A DNA stretch of 62,832 bases, counting the filler, from Hausera hauseri (Eukaryota), in NCBI GenBank assembly GCA_046269625.1. It is 10 parts of 10 records of this genome, joined end to end, with 100 filler letters (N's around TTAATTAATTAA, not from the genome) between each part and the next. Parts side by side here need not be neighbours in the genome. Positions count along the whole stretch, not along the records: positions 1 to 8,218 come from JBJURY010724324.1; 9 more parts are not named here. One strand, given 5' to 3'. The notes beneath the pieces were generated by a model. It did not search any database. It saw only the letters and a list, made by a program, of their open reading frames with translations, and was not told the origin of the DNA. The position numbers and the translations under genes were made by a program. Positions 1 to 21,000 of this stretch are shown piece after piece. Position 1 is the stretch's first letter, and each line of letters opens with the position of its first letter.

Positions 1-252
1 AACTGACCGTGATAAGAAATCGGCTATTAAATTGTCTGTGCCAGAAATATGGCGAATTTTAAAGTTGAATGTTGACAAATATGATATATGGCGTTCTTGT
101 CGCAGTGACGGTTGTTTCATGTTCATTACGCAAACGAGAGGTTTGTGGTCCGTTTGGATAGTGAAGGAACCAGCGATAAGCAAATGTGAAAAATGTTTCA
201 GAGCTAAAACTGTAGCCAAGAGTTCTCTATCGAAGATAGAATAACGGCATTC

Positions 253-1053
253 TTATAGCTGCAGCTTGCGTGAAAAGAATTCTAACGGCTCATTTATCCC
301 TTGAGATATTTGATGAAGAACTGCTCCTACTGCTGTAGTTGATGCATCGTTTGTTAAAATTAGGTCAGCATCAGGTTTTGAATAAGCTAAAATCTCGACT
401 GTTTTGAGCTTGGCGCGGAGTTCATCAAACTGGTTAACAAGTTCTGGTGTCCAATATATGAGCTTTTTCTTCGGCCCTGCTCCTAGTTGAACGAAAGGAG
501 CAGTTAACTGGCTACAGTGTGGGACGTATTTATGGACAAAATGTAAAGTTCCAAAGAAACTACGCATATCAATAGTGGTTTTTGGTAGCTTGATGTTTTG
601 TAACTGATGGATTCTATCAGGCTGTGGACTGTGACCATCAGGTGTGATGACTTGGCCAAGAAAATTGACTTTTTTTTGAAAGGAACACTTAGAAAAGTTC
701 ACTTGCAAATTGTAGTTATGTAAACGTTGAAAAACTAGTCTGAGGTGTTCTTTGTGTTGTTTGGGCAATGCCCATGCGACTAGTATATCATCAGTGTACG
801 GATATACAAACAGCAAGCCTGAAAGAACTGAATCAATGTGCCGTTGGAAAGTTTGTACTGCGTTTTTTAAGCCGAACGGCATGAATGCGTATTCTAAAAG
901 ACCAAAAGACGTTATAATGGGCGTTTTTGGGATGTATTCTGGTGCTACCGGTATTTGGTGGTAGGCTTTTTTGAGATCTATGGTAAAATAAATCGTAGTT
1001 TTGTGTAAAGAATGCAATATATCCTTAATCAAAGGTAGGAGACAAGCGTCCAT
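253..1053 (-). pseudogene. pol: Ty3/gypsy reverse transcriptase plus RNase H N-terminus (pol fragment)
   Basis: DLKKAYHQIP, MPFGLKNAVQTFQR, YTDDIL (YxDD), KCSF, FLG, DAS..AVGAVL; frame breaks at both ends. Confidence 0.93.
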
Positions 1054-1992
1054 GGTAGTGACGTTATTTAGTTGGCGATAACCGCCGCATGGACGGAATG
1101 TTCCATCTTTTTTCTCTCTGACGACGTGAATTGGTGATGCCCATGGTGATTTTGATCGTCTTATTATTCCAGATTTCTCGAGTGCGGAGAATTCCGCTTG
1201 GACTGCCTGTCGACGGCGTGGTGAAAGTGAGCGGAGTTTTTGCCAAACGGGCCTGGGATTTTCTGTGATGATATGGTGAAACGTTGTGTTAGCCGATCAA
1301 AATGCTGGATCTTTCTTAATTGTATGGAAATAAGATTTGACTAAATATTGTTGCATTTCATAGCTAAGCGTAGTACAGGTTGTTGTCGTCACGGCAGTGG
1401 CTTGGGAGGACTTAGTATGAAAAATGGTAGAAATCGGGCCGCTTAAATCGTACTTCAACAGAAATTTGGGACTATTTATATTAGTCTTAATAAGGCTTTT
1501 ATTCACATTGGTTGATGGATTTTTTAATATTGATTTTATAGTCGAGATAGGTTGCATGATTGGTTGGTTATTTGTAGAGGTCGGTTTTGTTGAACTGCTT
1601 TTAATGATCTGACGTTGTCTACAATATACAAGGAGGTTGTAGAAAGATAAGAAATCAGATCCAAGTATTAAATATTGTGTGTTGTCAACGACGAATGTCC
1701 AATTGAAAATGTCGGAGAGTTGTGGTAAAGTGAATGAAACCTGGGATGTACCGAAAATGCGTAATGCTTGGCCGTTAGCTGTATACTATTTTGTGTTAGA
1801 AGGAGATAGATAGTGTTTTGATGGATGGTGGTAATAGCGAAACATCTGCACCAGAGTCAATTACGAAGTTGATTAATTGATTGGGTTCAAAAGTAAAAGA
1901 TGCTTTTAATGTAAAAACGGCATAAGAACGGCTATCATGATGAAAACGTTTGCCTGTGCTAGCATGTGCCAAAATATCTGGCGGCTTTATGA

Positions 1993-1999
1993 GTTTTTT
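1993..1999 (-). promoter_or_regulatory. Putative -1 ribosomal frameshift heptamer A AAA AAC at the gag/pol junction (second copy at 31113-31119)
   Basis: Both family A copies end gag with AAAAAAC just before TAA, followed by a conserved GCCGCCAGA..TT(T/C)GGCA stem-forming segment. Confidence 0.7.
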
Positions 2000-3284
2000 G
2001 GTGGTACGGGATTTAAGTCGTTGGGAAAGGTAGGTCGTGGTGAATTCGATTGGTTAACGAAAGTGCAACTTGTAACGTAGTTGTGCTTCAGAATTGAATT
2101 TGTTATGGTAAACGCAGATAATGTCGGGTCGTTTGAAATGGGGCGAATAAAATCTGCAGTCTAAGCAGCATTTAGTGGAGTTGTCTTTAAATTTGGTGTG
2201 GTAGTAACACACCATTGATCATGTAGGTGACCTTTCATGCCTTGAATTTTTAGATGAAGTGCGGCTATGATTCTTATCAAAACGATTCCGTCTAGGCATG
2301 GACAAAGCTTCAATTTTTGACGTGAGCTCAGAAATTGCTTGGTGAATGTTGGCGTTTTCAGAACGTAAAGAATTTATCTGTGCGTTGAGATTAGATATGT
2401 CGTTGGCTTGTTGAGTTATTGGTGCTTGTAGAGTAGCGGCTACTAATGGGGCTATATGTGCATGTAATATTTCGTGGCTTTTGTCAGCCAGTTGTGCTAG
2501 TTTTTGTAGTAACGATGTGTCCTCTACTATGGTCAACAGTGCACGTATATCTATACGTAAAAATTGCGGAAATATCTGTGTAGTAAATCCGCGTTGTTTG
2601 CTTGATTAACGCCAAGAGTACTCAATTGAGTTAGGGAGGTTTAAAGAAATTCTGAGGGTTTCAATGTGCTTATGGTATTGTCATTAAAGTATTTGTGGAT
2701 AATGTTAGCCAGTGATTGTTCCGTGATTTTTATAGTCGAGTTAAAAGTGTTGTGTATGAGTCACTATTTTGGAAAATTTCCGATAAATTGGGCAGCTGAG
2801 AAATGCAAGAGTATAAGCAAACTGTTTGCTTTAAGAAACGAATCGACAATATTATTTGACTTCAACCAAGCCGCATGAAAGTCCAACCACGTCCTGCTGG
2901 AGTGTTGCTTGTCGACCAAGTATTCTATACAAGGTAGATTTACAGTAGACTACGGGGTAGAGGTGAATTTAACGGTACACTTATAGTAGGGATGTCGGCA
3001 AAATCTTGTTGGTCCTTAGAGGATGCTTTTGGAACAGATCCACATAAGAGACGGTAGTGTACACTCAGTATAAACGTTGAAGATAAGTGGGTGTAACCTC
3101 TTAGTGTCGGATTGTCGGAAAAAATCCATTATAACTAAGGCGAAAGTTAACGAGGGTTATTTGTCGCCGTAATATGTCCTACAGTTTTGCAATTGTTGTT
3201 GATTTGTGTATGTAGGTTTATGTATGCTTATTTTCGAATAATAAGACCAGCGGAACGAAAGTGTCACATAAGTTGGGTGTACAA

Positions 3285-3430
3285 TGTGGTGCATAAGACA
3301 CGGGCGCATTGTATTGACTGATCCTTCTAACCGGGAAGATCAGGGCAGCTGTAGAGCAGTGTTACTTTGAACAGTGTCGGCAACACCGACTGGTGTGTTT
3401 GCATGTGGAACAAATCCGGTCCGAGGTACA
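3285..3430 (-). repeat. Candidate short 5' LTR of family A copy 1
   Basis: 146 bp; minus strand runs TGTACC...GCACCACA, and the end is the inverse of the TGTGGTGC LTR start at 27362; no clean PBS follows. Confidence 0.3.
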
Positions 3431-3445
3431 TTTCAAATAATCTGA

Positions 3446-4179
3446 TCAAAACGGCAGTTCTTGATTTTGGGTAATTGATGCCTGGGCAGCTTCGGTTTCT
3501 TCATGTCGACTGGAAATGTTGTATAGTGCACAAATACACGGTTCCAGAATGTCGCCTGGATAGTAATTATTTGAAATTTTATTTGCTGTATTCGAGTTGA
3601 TTAAATCTAGATTCCATTCAATTGTTTTCAAGTGTCTCAACTCCTCCTAACGCAAACAAAGTATTTTTTTATACTGATTGTTACAATTTAGATTCGAAAG
3701 AATTCCAGCAGCACATGTAACAACATTGGTATCGATGTGATAATCTTGTTTATGAACCTGATTCGATGCATTTAATAAAACTTCGATTAAAATTTTCAGT
3801 ACATTATCGAAATTAAACCGAGTAGCTGTATCGGTCAATTTTCTTAATGTCCATAAACAATTATGCAAAAATCGATGGCTGAATTGTGGAGATAAATTGG
3901 AATTTTCATTTGAATTTTGTGGATATGCCGGAACAGTAATCCTTTTCTTAATTGTATAATACAAAATATTGGTCAGCGCATCCATTCCACCTTCACGAAT
4001 GATAACCGGTTTATTAACAAAATAAACGCTAAGAACTTTCAAAACTCGTATTTCTGTCCAGTAATTTTTCATAATCATACGCCATTGTTGCTTCATTAAT
4101 AACTACTGCGTCATCTTCATCTTTGATGAGTTTTACCAAATCTGGAATTGCGCTTTTTACTTCAACTTTGTCGATATAT
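3446..4179 (-). pseudogene. Beta-catenin/armadillo fragment: intronless, frameshifted, internally deleted
   Basis: SAIPDLVKLIKDED..VV (ARM1), YEKLL/RVLKVLSV..NKP.I..GGM.AL, NCLWTLR.L.D.AT, NVVTCAAGILSNL.CNN, DILEPCICAL..ISSRH.E.E.AQ, all matching beta-catenin ARM repeats. Confidence 0.9.
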
Positions 4180-4198
4180 AATCCCACTTCTGACACCA
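4180..4198 (-). promoter_or_regulatory. tRNA-Leu primer binding site (TGGTGTCAGAAGTGGGATT)
   Basis: Plus strand AATCCCACTTCTGACACCA equals the 3' 19 nt (including CCA) of the usual metazoan tRNA-Leu(CAA); preceded on minus by a TGTTAC...GTAAAACA segment (4203-4280). Confidence 0.85.
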
Positions 4199-4741
4199 TT
4201 GATGTTTTACTGACATTGGGAATAAATCCGCGTACGATAAATTCCATAATTGAAAGAAAAAGGAATGAATGCGCGTAACAAAACTTTATTGACTAATTCA
4301 AATGTTAATCGATTTTTCTATTAATTAGTAAAACAATAAAAATCTTCCGACGTCATTTACACGTCAACCCTCAGCAAAATAAATTAACAATAAAAAACGT
4401 CGCACGATTGAAAAAATCCTATGACTACAAATTTTGAACAACAAAAATATTTCGCAGCAAATATCACCAAAGTGCAGAAATTACACAACAGAACAAATAC
4501 GCTAAAAATCGTCAAAAATGTGAATAAACGCCGTGAAAACCATATCTTTGATAAATCAACCGTATTTCAATATAGAATCTTCGTCAATCATCAAATTAAA
4601 TTCTGTAATGATAATAATGATAAAAAGAAGAAAAGAATTGAAAGGTATGGTCCGAACGATCTCAAAGATAAACTGTACAAAATATACCCGTCAAAAATCA
4701 CAGCCGTTGTAAACTATAACATTGAAGATTTAACTTTTCTT

Positions 4742-5060
4742 TTATGAAAGAGAGCTGGAGAGAGCATCGACAGCATCAAAAAATTCCTCCTCGCCAATAG
4801 TACAATCTGGTCCTTCATCCAAATCCGGATTTCCAATAATTAACATTTTACTTGACAAATTCGATCCCAGTTTAGGTATGATAATAGGCACGTTTGAAGT
4901 TGAATTAGGTGTAGCACTGTTATCCTTCGTTTCAGCAAGTTTATTCTGCAATGACGATACTTCTTGAAGAACACATCGATATTTTTCCTCGATTTTGCGA
5001 CGTCTTTCTATTTCCCTATCCAGACGCCTCCAAGCATCTTCGCCTTGTTGATAGGATTTG
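4742..5060 (-). pseudogene. Ceramide transfer protein (CERT/COL4A3BP) middle-region fragment with FFAT motif
   Basis: EDAW-RRLDREIERRRKIEEKY coiled coil, then [22 protein letters not shown] (cf. CERT [22 protein letters not shown]); no PH or START domain. Confidence 0.8.
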
Positions 5061-5845
5061 TCGGTGAAAAAGAATAGCTGTATACGGGCCAGGCGTAACT
5101 GATTGTGGAGTACGAGCGATTGCGAATGAAGACGAACATCATCTCTGAGTCGATTATTTCATCATGTTTGGCAGAAATGGACGGCTGGTAAAATTATCCA
5201 GATATGGAATTTCTTAAATTCTATCCAGAATCTGCTACTGTTGAAGTTTTGGGGACCTTCACTTCTCTATTTAATCGTAGAGCTGATTTTCTAATATGAG
5301 GTGAATTGTGGTGGCGCTCGAGTCCGCGGCACCACGGGTACCACTTTGGTATGGGTTGCCGCAATAAATCTATTTCTTTTCCTGTTAACGGGTCAATCAT
5401 AAATGATAGTTTGAATTTAACCAAATCGGTTCGTCCGATATCTGTTTCGTCTTTGGCAAAAATGTCAAGATACTCAAAGATAAGATCAGAGAAGTTTTTA
5501 GATATTCATGTGATAGGTTTTTCTTGGCTTTTGCGAGAGTAATATTAAGTACATCGTCATTTTCCTTTCCTTGGCTTGAGGTGGCTGAGATTTTACTATT
5601 TTATTCTTCATGACAAGAAGTTTCAAGGGCCCGTCCAAGTTTCATCTTTGTAAATAATGTGACAATTTTGGGGTCGGTTTTAAAATTTCTATGGGTATAG
5701 TTCCTCCGACTACGTTAACGCAATAATGTGGCAGCAAGTCCGTTCTGAAGGGTTTTTGTTACGAACTCGATTACACTATTATCTTGAAATATCGTTCTAG
5801 CATGTATGACTATCCTAGAATTTGGTGGTATTTTCTTAGCATGTC

Positions 5846-6295
5846 CTACCCATATGTCTCCTTTATTGTAGGTAAGAGGAATATTTTCGTTATTAAGACA
5901 AATTGATCCAGATTGTAAATTTTATGTACACCCTGTAATTTCCGTAAGACATTCATCCGTAGGATGCATCGTGGATCTAATGTGGTCATTACATCGAAAG
6001 TTATTTTGATTCTTCGTCCGCAAATCCATAATTCGCATTTCGAATATCCGTAAGGTTTGTTACATTGTTGGAAGACTGAAATGGTACCAAGCGAATCTTT
6101 GGTGGCTAATTTTATTCGATATTGTAAATTTTCCGGAATTGCCTGTTTCGCTATTAATTCAACGTTTGCTGCCGTATCTACCATTGTGTTAAGATCAAAA
6201 GTACCGAAATGAACTGTATTGTGAGGTCGGTTATATCTTAGTAATTTGAGAAATGTTAGGACATCGTTATGATCATCTATGTGAGGTTCCATCAA
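5846..6295 (-). pseudogene. Retropepsin-like aspartic protease of family B
   Basis: TMVDTAANVELI (D-T-G-A-like active site) and PRCILRMNVL (degenerate ILG.D.L). Confidence 0.8.
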
Positions 6296-6755
6296 AGAAT
6301 AACTGGCTGAACAGTATCTAGTTGTTCCGTTAGTTAATATAACCGTTAGATTTTGCAGTGATTATGTATCATTTTCTGACCCTTTCGGTTTTTCCATATT
6401 TCGTGTAATGATAGACTGACGTATTTCTTCCTGAGAGTATGTTGGTAAGCTACGTAATTTTACTTAATCTTCTCTCTTCGCGTATGGATCCATTAAATCA
6501 GTTGGATTAGGGAATTTACAAATATGCATTTTTTTACTCTCATATAGTGAAGCAGGTAATTGGTACTTTTCCTGTCTCTTTGGTATTCATAAACTTGAAT
6601 TTCCTTCTCTTGTCCATAGGGATCCCGGTAGTATGGTAGTGTCCAGGAGCGGTATTGTCGTCCGAGCTTGATGAAGTATCCTTTGGGAATTGTTTCTCTG
6701 ACTTATAGTCAACATGTTTTTCTAATTTACCTCGCCATTATTTTTCCTGGTAGGC

Positions 6756-8218
6756 TTAAATTAATTTGCCAATTGGGGAAAATAAAGCGCCTACTATGTT
6801 CAACGATAATCCTGTTAGTTTGTAGATCTCGTAGACATTCAGTACAGAGTTGATACAAACCTTTAAAGTTTGTATAATGAACTGTATTACCAGAAACCCT
6901 GAGGCTACTTGGCCAAATCTTAAAAATCCTCCTGACATTTTATACCATAAGTTTGAGACAATTTTGCTATAGGCATCTGGCGTCCATAATCAATCCCATT
7001 TTTCTTCTCCTGCTGTGTCATCAATTACTCGATGTATTCCTTTATTTACTATTTGTTCACTCTGTCTCGGATATGCCAAAAACCTCACAAATGAATCAAT
7101 CTCTTTCTTACTACATAATGCTGACTTGGATACGTTGGTCAATATATTGGTTTCGATTGCGTGTTTCAGATTTGTCGTGGTTAATTTCTTTCGTTTTTCT
7201 TTGACTCTATCGCGATCCCGTAATCTAACCCAAAGATCTTGATTATCATACTTGATAAATGGTTTATTTAGTGATGAACAATTTTGGATTTCAGTAGGTA
7301 TTGTGTGCGATGCCAAAAGTATTCTAGTAAGTGGCTGGACGTATCGAATTTTTTCGTTATATTTTACGGGTATCTCAGAGTAACATGGAGTGCCCGTAAT
7401 TAAGGGTGGTTCTAAACGTTTACATTTGTATAATCATAGAACTTCTCCTAGGACTCGGCCTTATATCTCTTCACCAAAGGGAAGGGTTATTGTAATCATT
7501 TCTGGGTTAGATGCATAGATGTCAAACGGTTTCTTAAAGTTTCGAAGTTAACTTTACAAAAGTTTTAAACTGTTTCAGAATATATTTCTTCAATTGTTTT
7601 ATTGGTCAGATAGAACATAAAATCGTCTTTGTTCGCAATATAATCAGCAATATTTACTAACTGAGCCTTATTAGTAGGTGAATTTTCAGCACCTTTAATT
7701 TCCTTTTGCAATAAAAATTATTTGTCGTAATTCGTACTAAATACTTGTTTTCCACACTTTGTAATCGCATCTTGTTGTATAAATTTGACTCCTCCTTTAA
7801 TGTCCTTGGATATCACAATTTTAGGAGTTTTTACTTCAGGAATAACTTGGATATTAGTATGTTCAAAATTGGTCTCATAGTGCCGTGCGTAAAGTTTTCC
7901 CGTAGTTACGTTAAATTCTCCTTTTCTTATTTGTACTAATGTACAATCATAATTTGTTGGTGGTTTCCAAAGTATTGCGGATGTTTGCAGATTGTAGAAG
8001 GATGCGTCCATCATTGTATTTGTACTAGTCTCAAAAATATAAGTATTGTTTTTAATTTCAACTTCGGATTGGTCGTGTACCACAATATTTGCTTCGACAC
8101 CTTTACAGGTATCAAAATTTCATCCTATACAATTATCTTTTTCATCTTTATAACCAGCGATCCATTTTTCTTGCTGGGTTATTTGTCCTTTTATTGTAGT
8201 AAATAAAATATCTCCCCA
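6756..8218 (-). pseudogene. env: Chuvirus-like (class III, gB-type) envelope glycoprotein, C-terminal half with membrane anchor
   Basis: Manual translation through stops: KCGKQVFSTNY, GEVL*LYKCK..PCYSEIPVKYN..YVQPLTRILL..C, SKSALCSKKEIDSFVRFLAYPR, then hydrophobic FLRFGQVASGFLVIQFIIQTLKVCINSVLNVYEIYKLTGLSLNIVGALF; same motif series as recalled chuvirus G proteins. Confidence 0.8.
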
Positions 8219-8318: not shown

Positions 8319-11300
8319 TTTTCATGGTGTAATCTTTCATGGTGTTGCCTTCCTTGTCGTGGTCTTCCATGGTGTGGTCTTCCTTGTCGTGGTCTTTCAT
8401 GGTGTGGTCTATTATGGTGTGATCTTCCATGGTGTGGTCTTTCATGTTGTGTTATTTCATCGTGTGGTCTTTCATGGTGTGGTCTTCCATGTTTTGGTCT
8501 TATATGGTGTGGTCTTTCATTATGTTGTCTTTTATGGTGTGGTCTCCCATGGTATGGTCTTTCATGGTGTGGTCTTCCATGGTATAATCTTACATATTAT
8601 GGTCTTCCATGGTGTGGTCTATCATGGTGAGGTCTTCCATGGTTTGGTCTTCCATGGTGTGGGCTTTCTTGTCGTGTTCTTCCATGGTGTGATCTTCTAT
8701 GGTGTGGTCTATCATGGTGTTGTCTTTCATGGCATGGTCTTCCATGGTATCGTCTTCCTTGTCGTAGTCTTCCATGGTGTGGTCTTCCATGATGTGGCTT
8801 TCAATGTCGTGGTCTTATGGTGTGGTCTTCCATTGTTTGGTATTACATGGTGTGGGCTTTCATGTCGTGGTTTTCCGTGGTGTGGTATTTCATTGTGTGG
8901 TCTTTCATTGTGTGGTCTTCCGTGGTGTGGTCTTCCATAGTGTATTCTATCATGGTGTGGAATTTCATGGTATGTTCTTCCATGGTATAGTCTTCCTTGT
9001 CGTGGTCTTCCATGGTGTGGTCTTCCATGGTGTGGCCTTCGAATTATGGTTCTTCATCATGTGAACTTTCATGGTGCAATCTTTGATTATGTGGTTTTAC
9101 ATGGTGTGATGTTCCATGGTGTGGTCTTTCATGTTGTGTTCTTTCATGGTGTGGTCTTCCATGGTGTGGTCTTCCGTGGTGTAATCTTTCATGGTGTTGT
9201 CTTCCTTGTCGTGGTCTTCCATGGTGTGGTTTTCCTTGTCGTGGTCTTTCAAGGTGTGGTCTTCCATGGTGTGGTTTTCCATGCCGTGGTCTTCCATGGT
9301 ATTGTCTTTCATGGTGTGGTCTTTCATGGTATGGTCTTACATGTTATGGTCTTCCTTGTCGTCGTGTTCCATGGTGTGGCCTTCCATGCCGTGGTCTTTC
9401 ATGGTATGGTCTTTCATGGTGTGGTATTTTATAGTATGGTCTTACATGGTATGGTCTTGCTTCTCGTGGTCGTCCATCGTGTGGACTTTCATGGTGTAGT
9501 CTTTCATTGTGTGGTCTTCCATGGTGTGGTCTATCATGGTGTGGTATTTCATGGTGTGGTCTTCCATGGTATGGTCTTCCTTGTCGTGGTCTTCCATGGT
9601 GTGGCCTTCCATGGTGTGGCCTTCCATGTCATGGTTTTACATGATGTAATATTTCATGGTTTGGTCTTTCATTGTGTGGTTTTACATGGTGTGGTTTTTC
9701 ATGGTGTAATCTTTCATGGTGTTGCCTTCCTTGTCGTGGTCTTCCATGGTGTGGTCTTCCTTGTCGTGGTCTATCATGGTGTTGTCTGCCATGGTGTGGT
9801 CTTCCATGGTGTGGTTTTCATGTTGTGTTCTTTCATGGTGTGGTCTTCCATGGTGTGGTCTTCCATCGTGTAATCTTTCATGGTGTTGCCTTTCTTGTCG
9901 TGTTCTTCCATGGTGCGGTCTTCCTTGTCGTGGTCTTTCATGGTGTGGTCTATCATGGTGTGATCTTCCATGGTGTGGTCTTTCATGTTGTGTTATTTCA
10001 TGGTGTGGTCTTCCAAGGTGTGGTCTTCCTTGAAGTGGTCGTTCATGGTGTTGTCTTCCATGGTGTGGTCTTTTATGCCGTGGTCTTCCGTGGTATGGTC
10101 TTTCATGGTGTGAACTTTCATGGTATGATCTTACATGGTATGGTCTTTTTTGTCGTGGTGTTCCATGATGTGGTCTTTCATGGTGTAATCTTTCATGGTA
10201 TGGTTTTACATGGTATGGTCTTCCTTGGTGTGGTCTTCCAAGGTGTGGTCTTCCATGGTGTAATCTTTCATAATGTTGCCTTCCTTGTCGTGGTCTTCCA
10301 TGGTGTGGTCTTTCATTGTATGGTCTTCCTTAGTGTCGTCTTTCATGGTGTCGTTTTCCTTGGTGGGGTCTTTTATGGTATGGTATAGCATGGTGTGGTC
10401 TTTCTTGTCGTTGTCTTACATGGTGTGGCCTTCCATGGTGTGGTCTTTCATTGTGTGGTATTCCATGGTGTGGCCTTCCATGGTGTGGTCTTCCATGGTG
10501 TGGGATTCCATGTTGTGGTCTTCCATGGTGTGGCCTTTCATGTTGTTTTCTTTCATAGTGTGGTCTTCCTTGTCGTGGTCTTCCATGGTGTGGTCTTCCT
10601 TGTCGTGGTTTTTCAAGGTGTGGTTTTCCATGGTGTGGTTTTCCATGCCGTGGTCTTCCAAGGTATGGTCTTTCATGGTGTGGTCTTTCATGGTGTTGTC
10701 TTACATGTTATGGTCTTCCTTGTCGTCGTGTTCCATGGTGTGGTCTTCCATGCCGTGGTCTTTCATGGTATGGTCTTCATGGTGTGGTATTTTATAGTAT
10801 GGTCTTACATGGTATGGTCTTCCTTGTGAGGGTCTTCCATAGTGTGGCCTTCCATGGTGTGGCCTTCTATGTCATGGTCTTACATGATGTAATATTTCAT
10901 GGATTGGTCTTTCATTGTGTGGTTTTACATCGTATGGTCTTCCATGGTGTGGTTTTCGTGCTGTGGTCTCTCATGGAGTGGATTACCATGGTGTGGTCTT
11001 TTATGGTATGGTATTCCATGGTGTGGTATTCCTTCTCGATGTCTTCCATGGTATGGTCTTCGATGTCGTGGTGTTCCATGGTGTGACCTTCCATGTCGTG
11101 GTCTTACATGGTGTGTTTTTTCATGGTGTGGTCTTTCCTGATGTGGTCTTTCATGTTGTGGTCTTCCTTGTCGTTGTTTTCCATGGTATGGTTTTCCATG
11201 TCGTGTTGTTCCATGGTGTGGGTTTCCATGTCGTGGTCTTACATGGTGTGGTCTGTCATGGCGTGGTCTGTCATAGCGTGGTCTTCAGTCGTCTGAACTG

Positions 11301-13443
11301 CCATGTTGTGGTCTTCGATGGCGTGGTCTTTCACGGTGTGGTCTTTCATAGTGTGGTTTTCCATGCCGCGGTCTTCCATGGTATGGTCTTTCCTGGTGTG
11401 GTCTTTCATGGTATGGTCTTACATGTTATGGTCTTCCTTGTCGTCGTGTTCCATGGTGTGGTCTTCCATGCCGAGGTCTTTCATGGTNNNNNNNNNNNNN
11501 NNNNNNNNNNNNNNNNNNNNNNNNNNNNNNNNNNNNNNNNNNNNNNNNNNNNNNNNNNNNNNNNNNNNNNNNNNNNNNNNNNNNNNNTCGTTGTCTTCCA
11601 TGGTGTGGCCTTCCATGGTGTGGTCTTTCATTGTGTGGTATTCCATGGTGTGGCCTTCCATGTTCTTTTCTTTCATAGTGTGGTCTTCCATGGTGTGGGA
11701 TTCCATGTTGTGGTCTTCCATGGTGTGGCCTTTCATGTTGTTGTCTTCCATGGTGTGGCCTTCCATGGTGTGGTCTTTCATAGTGTGGTCTTTCATGGTA
11801 TGGTCTTCCTTGTCGTGGTCTTCCATGGTGTGGCCTTCCATGGTGTGGTATTTCGTGGTGTGGTTTTTAATGGTATGATCTTCCATGGCGTGGTCTTCCT
11901 TGTCGTTGTCTTTCATGGTGTGGCCTTCCATGGTGTGGTCTTTCATTGTGTGGTATTCCATGGTGTGTTCTTCCATGGCCTTGTCTTCCATGGTGTGGTC
12001 TTCCATGGTGTGATTTTCATGCTGTGGTTTTTCATGGTGTGGTTTTCCTTGGTGGGGTATTTTATTATATGGTATTCCATGCTGTGGTGTTCCTTGTCGT
12101 AGTCTTCCATGTTCTGGTCCTCCATGTCTTGGTCTTCCATGGTGTGGCCTTCCATGTCGTGTTCTTAAATGGTGTAGTCTTTCATGGCGTGGTCTTTATT
12201 TGTGTGGTCTTCTATGGTGTGTTCTTGCATGCTGTCGTCTTTCATGGTGTGGTCTTTCATGATGTGGTCTTACATGCTTTGTTCTTATATGGTGTAGTCT
12301 TTCATTGTGTGGTCTTCCATGGTGTGGTCTTTTATGGTGTGGTCTTTCATGGTGTTGTCTTCCATGCTGTGGTCTCTAGTTTTGTGGTCCTTCATCGTGT
12401 GGTCTTCCATGTTGTGGTCTTCGGTGTTGTTGATTTTCGTGTAGTGGCATTTCAGGGCGTGGTCTTTCATAATTTTGTCTTTCATGGTGTGGTCTTTCAT
12501 GGCGTGCTTTTCAATCATGTGAACTGCCATGTTGTCTTCTTCAATGGGGTGGTCTTTCGTGGTGTGTTCTTCCATGCTGTGGTCTTTCATGGTGTGGTCT
12601 TTCATAGTGTGGTCTTCCATGGTGTGGGATTCCTTGTTGTGATATTCGATGGCGTAGTCTTTCATTGTTTGGTCTTTCATTGTGTGGTCTTCCATGGTGT
12701 AGTATATCGTGATGAGGTCTTCCATGGTTTGGTCTTCCATGGCGTGGCCTTCCATGTCGTGGTCTTCCGTGGTGTGGTCTTTCATCGTGTGGTCTTTCAT
12801 TGTGTGGTCTTCCATGGTGTGGTCTTCCATGGTGTGTTCTCTCATGGTGTGGTATTTCATGGTATGGTCTTCCATGGTATGGTCTTCCTTGTCGTGGTCT
12901 TTCATGGTGTGGTCTTCCTTATCGTGGTCTTTCATTGTGTGGTCTATCATTGTGTGATCATTCATGGTGTGGTCTTTCATGTCGTGTTATTTCTTGGTGT
13001 GGTCTTCCATGGTGTGGTCTTCCGTAATGTAATCTTTTATGGCGTTGTCTTCCTTGTTGTGGTCTTCCATGGTGTAGTATTTCATGGTGTGGTTATTCAT
13101 TGTGTGTTCTTCCTTGGTGTGGTCTTCCATGATGTGGTATTCCATGCCGTGGTCTTCCATGGTATCGTCTTTCATGGTGTGGACTTTCATGGTATGGTTT
13201 TACATGGTATGGTCTTCCTTGGTGTGGTCTTCCATGATGTGGTCTTCCATGGTTGTGTTATTTCTTGGTGTGGTCTTCCATGGTGTGGTCTTCCGTAATG
13301 TAATCTTTTATGGCGTTGTCTTCCTTGTCGTGGTCTTCCATGGTGTAGTATTTCATGGTGTGGTCTTTCATTGTGTGTTCTTCCTTGGTGTGGTCTTCCA
13401 TGATGTGGTATTCCATGCCGTGGTCTTCCATGGTATCGTCTTT
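8319..13443. repeat. 15-bp minisatellite, consensus CATGGTGTGGTCTT(C/T), roughly 330 diverged copies
   Basis: The whole contig is this tandem unit; it generates spurious (VVFHG)n and (MEDHT)n ORFs. Confidence 0.97.
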
Positions 13444-13543: not shown

Positions 13544-14558
13544 AATCAAAATTATAAAATCTTTACATCTATACTAGCCAAAAGATTAGAGCATATCCTC
13601 CCAGATATAATACATTAAGACCAGACAGGGTTCATAAAAACAGACGGACCAAAGACAATATTAGAAGAACCCTAAATGTGATCAATCATATTAGAAGACT
13701 AACAAACAAGTAATTATACTGGGTCTAGACGCACTTAAAGCTTTTGATACTGTAGATTGGTCATTTTTATTCAGAGTCTTGTCCCAGTTCAACTTTTCTA
13801 ATAAATTTATAAAGGTAATTCAGGAATTGTACAACAAGCCCACAGGTAAAATTCGGATCAATGTGAAGACATAAAAATTGAGCAAGGGTGCAGACAAGGA
13901 TGTTCTATGTCCCCTTTGCTTTTTGCCATATTCATAGAACCCTTGGCACAGTTAATTAGACAAAACACTAAAATACACGGCATAAAAGTAAACCATAATG
14001 AACAAAAATTGGCGCTATTTGCGGATGATATTTTAATCTATTTGGCAAAACCCCAGGAATCCCTTCCAGAATTGCATAAAGTCTTGTTGAAATATGGTAA
14101 ATTTTCAGGTTACAAATTGAACTCTCTCAAATCTCAGGTCTTAACATTCAAATATTCGCCCAACAGTATTGATAAGGAAAACTTCAAAATAAACTGGGAT
14201 ATAGATTCAATTGTGTACTTAGGAGTGAATATACCTAAAGACCCAAAGAATATCGTCTCGGCAAATTACGACCCATTAATGATTAAAATAAAAAATGATA
14301 TAGCCAGATGGAGCCTACTGCCTTATCTGGGTCTTGTGCAAAGAGTAGAAACTATCAAAATGATGATGTTGCCAAAGCTACTTTACCTCTTCCAGACAAT
14401 ACCAGCAGAACCAACCAAATCTATGTTCCAAGAAATTGACAAAATGATTTCAAGATTCATTTGGCAAGGGAAACAGCCAAGGATTAGATTTAAAACTTTA
14501 CAGCTGAATAAACGTAAAGGAGGCCTTTCCCTCCCAAATATGAGTAATTACTACAAAG
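13544..14558 (+). mobile_element. L1/Tx1-clade LINE ORF2 reverse transcriptase fragment, teleost-like
   Basis: DYKIFTSILAKRL, DQTGF, LDA.KAFD.V.W, GCRQGCSMSPLLFAIFIEPLAQ, ALFADDILIYL, SGYKLN..KS, YLGV; frameshifted upstream of 13907. Confidence 0.92.
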
Positions 14559-15775
14559 TAGAGCTGGGCGATATGGCCTAAAATCAATATCTTGATATAT
14601 TGACCAGTTCACCTCGATAACGATAAATGCACGATAACTCTTATCACCACCACATAAAAGTACACAGTATCATAATATTATAACATGTCCATGTGTTATT
14701 CACAGGTTTTCTGTAGTTTATATTTGTCATTTTTGTGTTTTAATATTTAATAAAAACATTTTTGGCAAGACTTGAGTCAGATAAAGTGAAACAACCAGCT
14801 CCATAACTTTTCAGTGCAAACAAAACATTATGTATTATAATTTTATAATTAAAAACTTATACCAAATATGTCTTTTGTACTGCACAAAATAACTTAACTA
14901 CATTTTTTATTTGTTAGGCTGACTGATATCTTTATTAAAATAACTATTTCTTTGTATATTATATTATGTTATATATTATATGACTATTATTTAGAGAGCT
15001 CAAGTAATCATTTACATTTATTTTACTATTTATTCTTCATATTTGATCATTTATTGAATCACAGAGCAGTTCAGTCACAGTGGTTCTAAATATAAGCAAG
15101 CTATACTGTGAAGAGTGGAATTTGTAGCTAATAAGCAACATAACGTTTTTATTTTTTTATTTTTTATTTTTTTTGGGGGGGGGCACTAAGCGGAGACTCG
15201 TCTTTTCTTTAATATAGGACAAAGAAATGTTCATCTGTCAGAGTTAATATTGTTTCATTAGAGGAGCTGAAACAGCGGCTCTCACAGAACAGCCTGTGTG
15301 CACCTCGCTCCTGTAACAGAGCTGTCGAGGAGTTCGGTCACGTGAGCGAAGTTGGACATATCTGTTCTATAACGACGCTCTGAACACATAAACTTATAGT
15401 GAGTTACATTTTAGATACTAACGTCTCAGGAAGTTTGGGAGCAAAGTGTGGAGGACGGGGTTTGCTCACCCGGGACAGGAGCTGCAGGCGGACCGGTGTT
15501 CATTCTGCAGCACACTGCTTCACAGAGCTCAGAAAGACCCGCCCCCTGCTCTGCTCTGATTGGGCAAAACTGTGGGGTTCGTTTGATTTGTTCAAAGCAG
15601 CGTCTGTTTAGACCTGTATCAGACGGGACGGCTTTAGAGACCGCAACAGAAAACAAGCAGGTTTCTCTTTTCCTCATTTTTTTTAAATACCGAAATAACC
15701 GACGTGGGCAAAATGACGTCGGTTATTGACATAAATTTCGGTATCGGTTATTTTTCGGTATATTGCCCAGCCCTA
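14559..15775. mobile_element. Non-autonomous hAT-type DNA transposon (or two joined halves) truncating the L1
   Basis: Termini TAGAGCTGGGCGATAT / ATATTGCCCAGCCCTA form an imperfect 16-bp TIR of a type common in fish hAT MITEs; no 8-bp TSD (CTACAAAG vs GATTCCAT) and the L1 does not resume. Confidence 0.7.
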
Positions 15776-16129
15776 GATTCCATGGAGCGTGTACAGCTGA
15801 AAGTCTTAAAAGTTCCAGCCCTGAGCTCACTGTCTGTCAGGTCGTTGATGGTCAGAAGTAAATATTAAGATACGGTTCTCCGGGCCATGCCCATTGTCGT
15901 AGCGCAAAAAAACTCCATCCCGGTCGGTCATCTGATATCATACTGGGATTTTAACATCAGCTGCATTTAGAGGAACTGGTACAGGGTTTCCACCTTTCTG
16001 CTGGTTGCGTTGGATTGCTGTTTGAAGATTATTCACCGCTCCTAATTTTGCAGACGTCACATCATCTATATTTCTAACAGCCTGAGTGATTATTTACTGA
16101 GGTGGTTCCTCTGTGCTCTCGGCCCTTTT

Positions 16130-16358
16130 GGGCATCACGGCTCAAACTTTGCACATCTCATTTTTGGCCATTTCAGCAGCATGGGTGTGGTTGTTGGTTC
16201 TGTGGAGAAGCTGCTCTCCTCTTGCACTGATGAGCATTGCATCTGTGTTCACACTCAAAGCAGTCCTTCCCATCGCTCAGGTTCTTCTTCTTGACATAAC
16301 AAAATCCTTCCATGAGGATGTTCCTGCCTCCTTTTGTAGTTTCGATGACCTCCATCAC
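16130..16358 (-). pseudogene. FLYWCH-type zinc finger remnant, probably from a Mutator-like transposase
   Basis: TKGGRNILMEGFCYVKKK...CFECEHRC..HQCKRR pattern; frameshifted. Confidence 0.5.
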
Positions 16359-17880
16359 TGCTCTGACTAAAGCTGAAGATCTGCAGTCAATTCAAAAAGA
16401 TGTTGTTTATCTATGCTGAAGAACAAGACGTTTTGCTTTCGATCCAGAAGGATTTCTCAGCTCAAAGATGTCCTGAATATGCTGAGTGGCAGCTTTATAG
16501 ATCCACTAGAGGCCTCTGCAAGTCCTTAAATTCAAATGTAAATCAGATTGCAATCATCCATCCCTCACAATGGAGGATAATTAGGCTCTTTATCAGTTTA
16601 TTTGGTGTGTGAGATGTTTAGGTCACATGGCTGAAGGTGTGAGTTGAAGTGAAATTTACTGTAGCTTGGTTTCTTCATGGAGACCAATCTCCAAATGATG
16701 TTGAGCATTATGACGTTCAAAAGGAAACTGACAACTCTGTAAAGGGTTTTACTGTAAAAAGCACCACTGGCAACAGGGACACCAGGAACTTATCTTTTAA
16801 AGTGGAGTTACTGTAATTAATTTCAACAGTATATTTCTGTAAATTGGATTACAGTATAGAAACTATAAAAACCAGCAGATTACTGTTAGGACAGACACAC
16901 ATATTGTACAGTTACATATTTATGTGCCTCAATTTAATTTAACAGTATTTAACTGTAATTTACAGGATGTGGTTATCAATCAACAAAATAAAAAATCTAT
17001 GATTCCTGACTCCATCCAAATACACAAATCCAATAAGAAAACAGATACATTGTGTTTTATAATATTCACTTAACAGAATGGCATCTTTTCTGAAATTATG
17101 GTTCCAACCTCATTTGTTGAATAGAACTTTTTCCATTAACAGTATAAATTTCAGTTAAAATGGCTGCAACAACAATGTGAAGCTAAATAAAATCAACAAC
17201 ACAAATTCAACAACAGTATAATGTAAAGCCATCAAAGTGCAGCTTTGACTCGTGTCTTAGAAACAAGCAAGTGTTCATGTAAAGAAAAGACTGAAGCAGA
17301 ATCACATTCTCCAAAGACAGACTCACAAATGAATCATGTCACACAAAACATTCCATCCTGAGTAGAGTGAGAACACAACCAGCAGCCGACAGCATGTTTT
17401 AAAAAATACTGTATCATGCTGTTAAATATACAGTTATTTACTGTTACTGCCTAAACCTGACACACAAACTGACTTGTACATTTCATTGTTACTACAGCAA
17501 CAAATAAAAACTCATCAATATTTCTGGTTCAATTTCTGTATGTCCTACTTTATTTTATCCTCCACACAAATAGTTATAAAAAAGACTTCAGTTGTGTTCT
17601 CAAACACATTCCTCCTGTGTTCAGCAGTGGGCAGAGGTGTGTTACTACCAAGCTTCGCGGCTCAGGGGCGGGAAGGTCTGTTTCACCTTTCCACAAGTGT
17701 TTTTTTCTGAATGCTCAGATGTACAAAGGTGGAAACAGATATTCAGCAATTCAAGAGGAAAGATTGTGCTATTAGCTGGTTTTGTTTCTCTAAAGAGCAG
17801 TTTCTCATTCTTTCCAGCAGCCATGTTCTTTACATCAAAAAAGAAAAAATAAGTAGGTCCTCTGGACGTGTTCTTCTTTA

Positions 17881-17910
17881 GTGAAACGTTTCGTCTCTCC
17901 TCCAAGAGAC
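17881..17910 (-). ncRNA. Partial hammerhead ribozyme of a Penelope-like element, cut by the contig end
   Basis: Minus strand GTCTCT-TGGAGG-AGAGAC hairpin + GAAAC + GTTTCA fits stem II plus the GAAA core; the CUGANGA box would lie in the missing sequence. Confidence 0.55.
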
Positions 17911-18010: not shown

Positions 18011-21000
18011 CCGACTGAATTAATTTCGGTGTTTCCGAATCTGTAAGTGTCCGGAACTGCGTCAGTCCACAATTTATTGTGACTCAACTCATTGCGGTGT
18101 GTCCGAATATGCAGGTGTCGGGAACTGTGTCACGCCAAATTTTCTTGTCCAACTGAACTCATTCTGTTGTGTACTAATATGCGGGCGTCCGGAACTGGGT
18201 CCGGCCTAATTCTTTTTTCGAATCAACTCATTGTGGTATGTCCGAATATACAGGTGTCCGGCACTGAGTCAGTCCAAATTTTTTTCCAACTGAATTAATT
18301 TCGGTGTTTCAGAATCTTCAAGTGTCTGGAACTGCGTCAGTCCACAATTTATTGTGACTCAGCTCATTGTACTGTGTCCGAATATGCAGGTGTATGGAAC
18401 TGTATGAGGCCAAATTTTTTTTCGACTTAACTTACTGTGGTATGTCCGAATATACAGGTGTCCTGCACTGAGTCAGTCCTAATTTTTGTCCGACTCAACT
18501 CATTGTGGTGTGTCAGAATATGCAGATGTCAGGAACTGGATCAGGCTAAATTTTTTTGTCCAGCTCAAATCATTCTGTTGTGTCCGAAAATGCAGGTGTC
18601 CGTAACTGGGTCAGGCTAAATTTTTTTGTCCAACTCAACTCATTCTGTTGTGAACGAATATGCGGGCGTCCGGAACTGGGTCAGGCCAAATTCTTTTTCC
18701 GAATCAACTCATTGTGGTATGTCCGAATATACAAGTGTCTGGCACTGAGTCAGTCCAAATTTTTTTCCGACTCAACTCATTGCGGTGTGTCCGAACATGC
18801 AGGTGTCGGGAACTGTGACACGCCAAATTTTCTTATTCAACTGAACTCATTCTGTTGTGTACTAATATGCGGGTGTCCGGAACTGGGTTAGGCCAAATTC
18901 TTTTTCCGACTGAATTAATTTCGATGTTTCCGAATCTGCAAGTGTCCGGAACTGCGTCAGTCCACAATTTATTGTGACTCAACTCATTGTACTGTGTCGG
19001 AATATGCAGGTGTCCGGAACTGGGTCAGGCCAAATATTTTTCCGACTTAACTTATTGTGGTATATCCGAATATGCAGGTGTGCGGCAGTGAGTCAGTCCA
19101 AATTTCTTCCGACTCGACTTTTTGTGGTGTGTCCGAATATGCAGTTGTCCGATAGTGATTCAGGCGAAATTTTTTTTCCTACTTAAATGTCTCGGTTTGT
19201 GGAATATTTAAATGTCCGGAACTGAGTCAGTCCACAATATTTTGCCAATCAACTCACAGCGATGTGTCCGAATATGCATATGTCCGGAACTGGGTCAGGC
19301 CTAATTTTTTCCGACTCTACTCATTGCGGTGTGTCCGAATATGCCGGTGTCAAAAAGTGGTTCAGTCCAAATTTTTGTTCCGACACAACTCATCACGGTG
19401 TGTCCGAATATGCATGTGTCTGTACCTAGGTCATTACAAATATTTTTTGACAGAAAGCATTGGGGTTTTTCCGAATATGCAGAAGTCCGAAACTGGTCAG
19501 TGCAAATTTTTTTTCAAACTCAACCCATTGTGGTGTATCCGAATATGCAGGTGTTTGACACTGGGTCAGGCCAAATTCTTTTTCCGACTCAATTCATTGT
19601 GGGGAGACCGAATATGCACGTGTCCAGAACTGTGTTAGGCGACAATTTTTTCCGACTCAACTCATTGCGGTGTGTCCGAATATGCAGATGTCCGGAACTC
19701 GGCCAGGCCAAATTTTTTTCCGACTAAACTTATTGCGGTGTGTCCGAATATGCAGATGTCCGTAACAATTTTTTGCGACTCCACTCCTTGTGGTGTGTCC
19801 GAATATGCAGGTGTCCGGAACTGGGACAGGCCACAATTTTTATGACTCAACACATTTCGGTGTGTCCGAATATTCCGGTGTCAAAAAGTGGTTCGGGGCA
19901 AATTTTTGTTCCGACAAAACTCATCGCGGTGTTTCCGAACATGCAGGTGTCCGAATCTAGGTCATTACAAATTTTTTTCCTACAGAACGCATTGGGGTTT
20001 GTCCGAATATGCAGATGTCCGGAACTGATATAGTCCACAATTTTTTCCGACTCAACTCGTTGCGCTGTGTCCGAATATGCAGGTGTCCGGATCTGTGTCA
20101 GAACGCAGTTCTTTACGACTCAACTTATTTCGCTGTGTCAGAATATGCAATCGTCTGGAACTGGGTCAGAGCGAATTTTTTTTCCAACCCAACTCATTGT
20201 GGTGTGTCCGCATATGCAGGTGTTCGGAACTGAGTCAATCCAAATTTTTTTCCGACTGAACTCTTTGCGGTGAGTCGGAATATGCAGATGTCCGTAACTG
20301 CGTCAGTCCACAATTTATTATGACTCAATTAATTGTACTGTGTCGGAATATGCAGGTGTCCGGAACTGGGTCAGGCTAAATTTTTTTGTCCAGCTCAAAT
20401 CATTCTGTTGTGTCCACATAGGCAGGTGTCCGGAACTGGCTCAGTCCAGAATTTTTTCAACTTTCATCATGGCGGTAGGTACTAATATGCAGGTGTCCGG
20501 AAATACTTCAGTCTAAAAGATTTTTTCGACTCAACACATGGCACTGAGTCTAAATATGCCGGTGTCCACAACTGGGTCGCGTCAAAATTTTTGCGACTCA
20601 ACTGATTGCAGTGTGCCCCAATATGTAGGAGTCCGGAACTAGGTCAGTCAAAAACTTTTTTTTACTGAACCCCTTGCGCTGAGTCTGAATATGCAGGTGT
20701 CCGGAATTGGGTCAGCCCAGAATTTTTTCGACTTAAGTTTTGCGCTGTGTACGAATATGCAGGTGTCCGGAACTGGATCAGGCCGAGAGTTTTTTCCCAC
20801 TCAGCTTACTGCGGTGAGTCCGAATATGCAGGTGTCTGGAACTAGGTCAGTCTATAATTTTTTTTCGACTCAACCAATTACGGTGAGTCTGAATATGCAG
20901 GTGTCCGGAACTGCGTCAGGCCAAATTTTTTTCCCACTCAGCTCATTGCAGTGAGTCCGATTATGAACGTGTCTGGAATTGGGTCAGGCCACAATTTCTT

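What the first reader, a model, noticed from the sequence alone, without database searches (positions are those of the whole stretch)
3430..4280. Beta-catenin fragment directly behind a perfect tRNA-Leu PBS: LTR-mediated gene capture
Seen: a candidate 78-bp LTR (4280-4203) and a 19-nt PBS, then immediately and in frame (MVSEVGL-YIDKVEVKSAIPDL) intronless beta-catenin sequence. It jumps from ARM1 (DEDDAVVINEATMA) to YDYEKLL, skipping roughly 150 aa, and ends beside another candidate LTR at 3430. Established: template switching by LTR reverse transcriptase yields chimeric retrocopies, as in oncogene transduction. Inference: a Wnt effector lacking its N-terminal degron was mobilised by a retroelement and has since decayed.
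Basis: partly seen in the sequence, partly recalled or inferred. Interest (0 to 1): 0.7.

Follow-up and report, generated by a model that had tools for sequence, protein, structure and literature searches.

The report
Dead planarian beta-catenin fragment behind PBS
A broken, twice-truncated copy of the flatworm head-tail gene beta-catenin-1 sits directly behind a retrotransposon primer site. It is most likely an ordinary fossil of gene capture by a jumping gene and cannot make an active Wnt protein.

Summary
The core observation holds. A 19-nt primer-binding site (PBS, 4198-4180, minus strand) matches the tRNA-Leu(CAA) 3' end exactly. Triclad beta-catenin-1 sequence follows at once: Smed aa ~131-163, a 155-codon in-frame deletion, then aa 319-560, with four frameshifts. 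The copy groups with marine triclad (Maricola) orthologues.

Three parts fail. (1) The 'LTR at 3430' is catenin coding sequence, which runs to 3369. (2) The two flanks share no similarity, and the downstream gag-pol is a CsRn1-type element, a clade that uses a tRNA-Trp primer. (3) The 78-bp LTR cannot be delimited.

The PBS 3' half overlaps catenin-like codons (E-x-G-L), so a microsimilarity-guided reverse-transcriptase switch at the PBS is the best mechanism (0.58). Intron loss is untested, and a 3.2-kb unbroken midasin ORF in the window shows that 'intronless' is weak evidence here. The ATG-started product is 56 aa. Even unbroken, the copy lacks ARM2-4 and the C-terminus, so it is no activated effector.

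A CERT fragment and an env-protease element lie upstream; RhoGAP and importin-5 fragments lie behind an LTR/PBS-like site in another contig. Verdict: a probable new instance of known LTR-mediated retroposition; interest modest.

The parts
6666..8190 (-). Decayed class III (gB/mononegavirus-type) fusion glycoprotein, env of a GAG-ENV-POL (Burro-like) Ty3/gypsy element; cut by the contig end
   Evidence: Pfam PF24664 E 4.3e-35 over 7649-6666; 8190-7712 matches a second env at 47105-47593, E 4e-20; env-before-protease order described in PMC6431247 section 7 and PMC13524379 passage
5933..6232 (-). Decayed aspartyl protease of the same element; a stretch like the start of a gypsy RT follows near 5490-5350 (recalled resemblance, not tested)
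   Evidence: Pfam PF00077 E 4e-4, 21.1 bits against cut-off 20.7
4763..5050 (-). Fragment of a host CERT (ceramide transfer protein) gene: coiled coil plus acidic FFAT-type motif (motif name recalled); no break inside
   Evidence: 54% identity over 100 aa to P0121 aa 231-329, E 3e-25; P0121 has a START domain and matches solved CERT chains, E 1.7e-58
4203..4760 (-). T-rich stretch (43% T) that holds the candidate LTR; only the 3' end at 4203 is suggested; AATAAA at 4290-4285; 5' boundary unknown
   Evidence: sequence, composition, no second copy in window, no Rfam match in 3000-5600
4180..4198 (-). Primer-binding site complementary to the tRNA-Leu(CAA) 3' end including CCA; its 3' half overlaps catenin-like codons
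4083..4181 (-). Beta-catenin-1 piece 1, Smed aa 131-163 (unambiguous from aa 133 at 4175); first half of ARM1 (repeat numbering recalled)
3369..4082 (-). Beta-catenin-1 piece 2, Smed aa 319-560, joined in frame to piece 1; frameshifts near 4061, 3664, 3632 and 3454; no in-frame stop
   Evidence: tree
2936..3368 (-). Unassigned spacer/leader before the downstream gag; weak candidate LTR end near 3290-3283 (9-nt inverted match to the motif that follows three pol ends elsewhere in the window)
   Evidence: 10 such matches with up to 1 mismatch occur on this strand, so it is weak
1..2935 (-). Decayed CsRn1-clade Ty3/gypsy gag-pol: gag CX2HX9CX3C motif at 2209, RT 1113-649, RNase H 453-67; unrelated to the tRNA-Leu PBS
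   Evidence: Pfam E 2e-24 to 4e-24; motif; clade defined by CHCC gag and tRNA-Trp PBS in PMC2582038 passages; 57-65% nt identity to the element at 28983-32068

Best explanation
This is a dead partial retrocopy of the triclad beta-catenin-1 gene, made inside the particle of a tRNA-Leu-primed Ty3/gypsy retrotransposon. SHOWN: PBS, catenin identity and extent, deletion, frameshifts, common orientation, no matching LTR pair. INFERRED: (1) beta-catenin-1 mRNA was co-packaged and copied after a template switch. (2) The 5' junction formed at the PBS itself, most simply at plus-strand transfer, when the tRNA-derived PBS end paired with a PBS-like stretch of the catenin cDNA (codons E-x-G-L); this also explains the shared frame. 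(3) The 155-codon gap came from a second, intramolecular switch or a later deletion. (4) After integration the copy decayed (roughly 7% divergence at most), and its original 3' flank was lost when a CsRn1-type element came to lie downstream. It makes no functional protein.
For: PBS 19/19, far beyond chance. Catenin begins within the last bases of the PBS with no element leader or gag between. The three codons in the PBS 3' half resemble triclad beta-catenin-1 at that register: P 0.013 (best row) and 0.006 (mean of 11 rows) among 13,988 background peptides, whereas the PBS 5' half does not (P about 0.5). Tan et al. found microsimilarity at 25 of 29 junctions, partial copies and multi-gene chimeras (PMC5131818 section 5). 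Four of the 4 host fragments found in the two LTR-rich contigs (catenin, CERT, RhoGAP, IPO5) are on the same strand as the retroelement ORFs. The decay spectrum looks neutral. An unbroken 1070-codon ORF in another contig argues that the frameshifts are not general read error.
Against: No 3' partner: the downstream element belongs to another clade with another primer, and no LTR pair, PPT or target-site duplication was found. Intron loss is untested. A 3.2-kb unbroken midasin ORF and a near-complete uninterrupted MAP1B-like gene in other contigs show that long exons or other retrocopies are present. The junction similarity is weak: anchored gapped score 17, reached by 10 of 600 background pieces, against 23-96 for true orthologues. 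It is seen with Planarioidea (P 0.004) but not with the two Maricola rows (P 0.17), which are the nearest relatives. Zero in-frame stops in 268 codons is slightly few for neutral decay (P 0.03 at 7%, 0.09 at 5%).
Confidence: 0.58

Rival explanations
1. DNA-level origin. A genomic piece of beta-catenin-1 (long exons, so no intron seen) was duplicated into a transposon graveyard. An LTR element inserted beside or into it, and later microhomology-mediated deletions removed the element's interior and 155 catenin codons, leaving the PBS next to the catenin.
For: The contig is a mosaic of truncated pieces from at least two retroelement clades and two host genes. All four frameshifts are small deletions and there is one large deletion. 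Very long uninterrupted ORFs exist in the window. No second arm of the Leu-PBS element is present.
Against: It needs a deletion ending exactly at the PBS 3' end. No intron or splice remnant was seen in 812 nt of catenin or 288 nt of CERT. All four host fragments are in sense orientation.
Confidence: 0.22
2. Direct tRNA priming on the host mRNA. tRNA-Leu(CAA) primed reverse transcription at a PBS-like site inside the beta-catenin-1 mRNA, and copying of the tRNA overwrote that site with a perfect PBS. Catenin would then lie on both sides, and the 'LTR end' at 4217-4200 would be catenin codons.
For: The six codons upstream of the PBS also resemble triclad catenin in exact register: P 0.004 best row, 0.0005 mean; codons -3 to -14 against Planarioidea P 0.0001. 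tblastn extends to 4217 for 4 of 8 triclad queries.
Against: With the PBS masked, the anchored score is 14, reached by 32 of 600 background pieces and 5 of 300 shuffles; true orthologues give 20-91. Codons -15 to -20 show nothing (P 0.5-0.99), and the conserved GGE-x-MAD motif of all rows shown is absent at its register. Several windows and groups were tested. The same bases read as a normal LTR end.
Confidence: 0.07
3. Assembly chimera: a short unplaced contig stitched from repeats, so the PBS-catenin junction does not exist in the genome.
For: The window is a chain of short contigs joined by N spacers, and one contig (13544-17910) has a different CpG profile (0.47 against about 1.0-1.2).
Against: A decayed, internally deleted catenin must exist somewhere in any case. 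The junctions lie in sequence with no repeat in the window, and no N lies within 1-8218.
Confidence: 0.08
4. The PBS is a coincidence inside beta-catenin-1 coding sequence and no tRNA-primed element is involved.
For: The PBS reads in frame as residues compatible with the variable linker of triclad beta-catenin-1.
Against: Chance expectation is 6e-6 per window even with 60 tRNA ends. None of the 11 triclad rows has this peptide. The match includes the CCA complement.
Confidence: 0.02
5. One reading: a degron-less, active Wnt effector was mobilised like a transduced oncogene and was once functional.
For: The N-terminal region is missing; the ATG, piece 1 and piece 2 are in one frame; there are no in-frame stops.
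Against: aa 164-318 and 561-954 are also missing. By recalled numbering this removes ARM2-4, one of the two TCF-binding lysines and the transactivation tail. The ATG is a by-product of the PBS, and frame match has a 1 in 3 prior or follows from codon-level microsimilarity. The present ORF is 56 aa.
Confidence: 0.03

Closest known systems
LTR-mediated retrocopies of metazoans (Tan et al. 2016, PMC5131818; seen: abstract passages, section 5 whole, other passages; supplements not seen)
   Same: Partial mRNA-like copy, truncated at both ends, fused to LTR-element sequence in sense orientation, with possible microsimilarity at the junction; fragments of more than one gene nearby.
   Different: There the copy replaces part of the internal ORFs and both flanks come from one element. 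Here the 5' junction is at the PBS (the terms PBS and primer binding do not occur in their main text), the 3' flank is another clade, the copy is old and decayed, and no flatworm was in their named taxa.
Pxyfem retrocopies of Plutella xylostella (PMC9674220; seen: abstract, section 10)
   Same: Partial cDNA of a key developmental regulator in a transposon graveyard, LTR-element sequence on one side only.
   Different: Pxyfem spans exon junctions, is multicopy and yields silencing RNAs; none of these is shown here.
Steamer-like (tRNA-Leu-primed) Ty3/gypsy elements (PMC8905726; seen: one passage)
   Same: Same 12-nt PBS and a similar LTR 3' end.
   Different: In Steamer the PBS follows the LTR at once and the LTR is about 177-187 bp and starts TGTAACA. 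Here 4 nt intervene, no such start was identified and no gag-pol of the element remains.
Burro / GAG-ENV-POL errantiviruses of flatworms (PMC6431247 section 7; PMC13524379 passages and supplementary file 1 rows)
   Same: The upstream fragment has env before the protease, and Burro elements carry host-derived domains.
   Different: Burro's host-like domains are parts of intact polyproteins; catenin and CERT are not among those listed. Of 9 flatworm errantiviruses in the table, 8 have no PBS assigned and 1 has a different one, so the env element is not shown to be the PBS donor.
Oncogene transduction by retroviruses (recalled; general mechanism in PMC3187697 passages)
   Same: Non-homologous template switching onto a cellular mRNA.
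   Different: No active product, no intact genome, no sign of selection or spread.

Membership tests
LTR-mediated retrocopy (Tan et al. 2016) | Host coding sequence fused to LTR-element sequence at the 5' side | tested here: met
   PBS 19/19 directly upstream
LTR-mediated retrocopy (Tan et al. 2016) | Both flanks from the same element, with 5' and 3' LTRs | tested here: not met
   No similarity between flanks (178 of 200 shuffles as high); downstream element is CsRn1-type. Later rearrangement could explain this, so it is filed as probable, not proven.
LTR-mediated retrocopy (Tan et al. 2016) | Loss of the parent gene's introns | not testable with these tools
   No eukaryotic genome collection was open; the paper search for the gene structure gave nothing usable in its listing
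LTR-mediated retrocopy (Tan et al. 2016) | Microsimilarity at switch points | tested here: inconclusive
   Protein-level only: P 0.006-0.013, 10 of 600; not seen with the Maricola rows; parent DNA not available
LTR-mediated retrocopy (Tan et al. 2016) | No poly(A) tail or L1-type hallmarks | tested here: met
   3' end at 3369 runs into mixed sequence with no A tract
LTR (4280-4203 as proposed) | Direct repeat or multicopy family, with TG...CA ends and an internal poly(A) signal | tested here: inconclusive
   TG and CA are present, but there is no second copy in 62.8 kb and AATAAA is outside the proposed limits
LTR (at 3430 as proposed) | Non-coding repeat beyond the end of the captured gene | tested here: not met
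   3430-3369 encodes catenin aa ~540-560
Triclad beta-catenin-1 | Groups with triclad beta-catenin-1 and shares its inserts | tested here: met
   Inside the triclad clade 100/100; sister to Bdelloura + Camerata 97/94; placement outside triclads p-AU 0.005, with Dugesiidae 0.03, with Planarioidea 0.003. Long branch; land planarians, Cavernicola and the paralogues were not in the set.
Activated (degron-less) beta-catenin | Intact ARM array and C-terminal transactivation region in an open frame | tested here: not met
   aa 164-318 and 561-954 absent, four frameshifts, 56-aa ORF
CsRn1 clade (downstream element) | Gag CX2HX9CX3C motif | tested here: met
   Motif at 2209; definition in PMC2582038
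CsRn1 clade (downstream element) | tRNA-Trp PBS | tested here: inconclusive
   No clear PBS among CA-TGG candidates upstream of this gag

The most novel reading that the evidence does not exclude
In this marine-triclad-like genome, host mRNAs are captured at the primer-binding step itself. A tRNA primer or the tRNA-derived PBS end lands on PBS-like codons of an mRNA and writes a perfect PBS into the copy. This would be a recurrent route (catenin here; RhoGAP and importin-5 behind an LTR/PBS-like site near 36210), and it could turn a beta-catenin-1 copy into a source of small RNAs against the gene that sets head-regeneration ability.
Probability: 0.07. Interest if true: 0.7.

Novelty: new member of a known kind. 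Interest (0 to 1): 0.3.

Why it matters
If confirmed, it extends LTR-mediated retroposition to triclad flatworms. I found no report of such a copy (0 papers with at least 4 of planarian, retrocopies, pseudogene, beta-catenin, Maricola; searches listed none by title or abstract start). It also gives a case where the switch point is the PBS, which makes a plus-strand-transfer error testable once the parent gene is in hand.

Beta-catenin-1 knockdown rescues head formation in poorly regenerating planarians, with indications in two Maricola species (PMC10697840 passages). A transcribed copy that yields small RNAs would therefore be of real interest, but nothing here shows transcription. In practice such copies can confuse gene annotation and RNAi or qPCR design. 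As it stands it is one decayed fragment in a transposon graveyard.

Tried and rejected
- Second copy of the candidate LTR or of the junction in the window: none.
- Alignment of four LTR or pre-gag candidates: no usable homology, 45% mean column identity.
- tRNA genes in the window: 0. Rfam on 3000-5600: 0 matches.
- The 4745-5158 ORF against solved structures: no significant hit; it was identified only through P0121.
- Midasin search to place the host: uninformative, best hits 46-47% across unrelated animals. The host lineage therefore rests on the catenin tree alone, and horizontal origin of the copy is not excluded.
- Cluster look-up for names and sources of P0121 and the catenin hits could not be made, so P0121's organism is unknown.
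- The atlas search of the CERT fragment did not complete; the atlas search of the RhoGAP ORF only confirmed the family.
- Parent gene structure: no usable paper in the listing. A paper describing deletions that start at the PBS was not found or in the passages of PMC3187697, so that precedent is recalled only.
- Rejected: catenin in the 5' leader of the downstream gag-pol element, because that clade uses a different primer.
- Rejected: catenin homology reaching far upstream (a methionine in register at codon -24), because the conserved motif around it is absent and scores are far below orthologue controls.
- Rejected as unsupported: the env element as PBS donor.
- Not run: structure prediction and complex folding (a frameshifted fragment gives no meaningful model) and the scan of bacterial and archaeal genomes (wrong domain). 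Metagenome and viral contig collections were not searched, so copies there stayed unchecked.

Full report
Setting. The window is a chain of short contigs joined by N spacers; the finding lies in the first, 1-8218, which has no N. All features below are on the minus strand. In order, the contig holds a decayed class III fusion glycoprotein (Pfam E 4.3e-35), an aspartyl protease (E 4e-4), a CERT fragment, a T-rich stretch, the PBS, the catenin pieces, a spacer and a decayed gag-pol (RT and RNase H, E about 1e-24).

The PBS is real. Positions 4198-4180 match 19 of 19 bases of a published antisense probe for tRNA-Leu(CAA) (PMC7997516, one passage). The first 12 are the Steamer PBS (PMC8905726, one passage). 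The 15-nt core has one exact match in the window; the one other match, with 3 mismatches, is at chance level (mean 1.39). An exact 19-mer is expected 1e-7 times per window, or 6e-6 with an assumed 60 tRNA ends.

The catenin is real and is triclad beta-catenin-1. Of 833 hits among 1330 candidates, the 11 best are triclad beta-catenin-1 at 53-64%; the other 109 listed are at 41% or less. A frameshift-aware alignment gives Smed aa 133-163 at 4175-4083, an in-frame loss of aa 164-318, and aa 319-560 at 4082-3369. It has frameshifts near 4061, 3664, 3632 and 3454 and no in-frame stop; 190 of 281 codons are identical to Smed and 193 of 272 to Camerata. On 272 columns and 21 rows chosen by me from the 120 listed hits (all 11 triclads, 5 neodermatans, 4 outgroups, plus the copy), the copy is sister to Bdelloura + Camerata (97/94). 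Grouping with Dugesiidae (p-AU 0.03), with Planarioidea (0.003) or outside triclads (0.005) is rejected. The branch is long, and land planarians, Cavernicola and paralogues were not sampled, so 'Maricola-like' is provisional.

It is decayed. Of 156 positions invariant in the 11 triclads, 26 are changed, 22 by a single base; simulation puts this near 7% nucleotide divergence, an upper bound since the parent may differ at some sites. Fifteen of those 22 run G/C to A/T, 1 the other way, 1 neither and 5 are ambiguous. Against pure neutrality, zero stops in 268 codons has P 0.03 at 7% and 0.09 at 5%. The ORF from the PBS-made ATG is 56 aa. Smed aa 138-355 aligns to aa 148-365 of a solved vertebrate chain. 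By recalled repeat numbering the deletion removes half of ARM1 through the start of ARM5, and the 3' truncation removes the last repeats and the tail. This was never an activated effector.

The LTR claims fail or stay open. Catenin homology runs 60 nt past 3430. The spacer after it has no similarity to 4760-4203 (178 of 200 shuffles score as high). The downstream gag has the CX2HX9CX3C motif that, with a tRNA-Trp PBS, defines the CsRn1 clade (PMC2582038, passages), so it is not the partner of a Leu PBS. Upstream, the 3' end at 4203 resembles a Steamer LTR end, but no second copy exists in the window and an AATAAA lies just outside the proposed 78 bp. The env-protease order further upstream matches Burro and flatworm GAG-ENV-POL errantiviruses (PMC6431247 section 7; PMC13524379 passages). 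Of 9 flatworm rows in that paper's table, 8 have no PBS and 1 a different one, so the donor of the PBS is unknown.

The junction. Read in the catenin frame, the PBS 3' half gives E-V-G-L where triclads have [DE]-[FY]-[GA]-[IL] in 9 of 11 rows. These three codons score P 0.013 (best row) and 0.006 (mean) against 13,988 background peptides; the PBS 5' half scores at chance. The six codons upstream of the PBS also score (P 0.004 and 0.0005), driven by Planarioidea (P 0.001) and not by Maricola (P 0.08). An anchored gapped extension gives 17 with the PBS (10 of 600 background pieces, 5 of 300 shuffles) and 14 with it masked (32 of 600, 5 of 300), whereas true orthologues give 20-96. So the similarity is short and marginal: it fits microsimilarity that guided a switch, and does not fit continuous catenin homology far upstream. 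Several windows were tested, so these P values are optimistic.

Mechanism. Plus-strand transfer relies on short complementarity at the PBS (PMC3187697, passages). If a co-packaged catenin mRNA had been copied into the minus strand, the tRNA-derived PBS end could pair with a PBS-like stretch in it and yield exactly LTR-PBS-gene. This is inference; the general process (partial copies, microsimilarity at 25 of 29 junctions, multi-gene chimeras) is established in animals (PMC5131818, section 5 and passages; supplements not seen and may hold a PBS-junction case). Support from context: 4 of 4 host fragments found in the two LTR-rich contigs are in sense orientation, and the RhoGAP and IPO5 pieces follow an LTR/PBS-like site. 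Against: no 3' arm, no target-site duplication, and no test of intron loss. A 1070-codon unbroken midasin ORF and an uninterrupted MAP1B-like gene show that lack of introns over 812 nt is not diagnostic, if those contigs come from the same animal. I give 0.58 to RT-mediated capture at the PBS, 0.22 to DNA-level duplication plus deletion, 0.08 to misassembly, 0.07 to direct tRNA priming on the mRNA, 0.03 to a once-functional effector and 0.02 to a chance PBS.

Comparison and novelty. It works like an LTR-mediated retrocopy, but one defining feature (both arms from one element) is not met and another (intron loss) could not be tested, so membership is probable only. The nearest functional precedent is Pxyfem, one-sided LTR retrocopies that yield silencing RNAs (PMC9674220, abstract and section 10). 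Beta-catenin-1 governs head regeneration in planarians, including indications in two Maricola (PMC10697840, passages), which is why small-RNA data would be worth a look; no expression evidence exists here. Searches found no report of such a planarian copy (0 papers; none evident in listings), but the library lacks most subscription journals. Verdict: new member of a known kind, interest 0.3.

Noticed in passing
window 5050-4763 (-): Second host-gene fragment in the same contig: CERT middle region, unbroken, 560 nt upstream of the PBS.
   Followed up: yes
window 36330-34065 (-): A pol end and purine tract, about 120 nt of LTR-like sequence ending CA, a PBS-like TGG stretch at ~36209, then RhoGAP (35876-35085, E 2.7e-18) and importin-5 N-terminal (34763-34065, E 2.8e-08) fragments, ahead of a CsRn1-type gag-pol: a possible second capture.
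   Followed up: partly
window 52057-48848 (-): Unbroken 1070-codon midasin ORF with no intron; against a starfish orthologue it skips about 120 aa in frame near 49840.
   Followed up: partly
window ~60500-58350 (-): MAP1B/futsch-like gene, apparently uninterrupted by introns but with frameshifts and stops; a kinase fragment (62832-62593) and a DDE transposase remnant lie upstream.
   Followed up: no
window 43082-47594 (+) and 54959-52173 (-): Two related (57% nt) decayed segments; the first continues into a ubiquitin-like domain and a class III fusion glycoprotein related to the env at 8190-6666, recalling Burro-type organisation.
   Followed up: partly
window 56535-56480 (-): A CsRn1-type pol end and LTR start joined within about 40 nt to a different LTR end, PBS-like site and gag: nested or recombined elements.
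   Followed up: no
window 13544-17910: Contig with a LINE-type RT (E 7e-17) and CpG depletion (0.47) unlike most contigs (0.9-1.3); may come from another organism.
   Followed up: no
window 8323-13442 and 18011-26190: Two satellite arrays: 15-bp unit, about 342 copies; 68-69-bp unit, about 120 copies.
   Followed up: no
whole window: Pseudo-scaffold of short contigs joined by 44 N, a 12-nt all-frame stop linker and 44 N, so neighbouring contigs are not linked.
   Followed up: yes
window 37311-37549 and 29285-29522: An RNase H piece occurs in inverted orientation between the two CsRn1-type pol copies of one contig, 74% identical.
   Followed up: no
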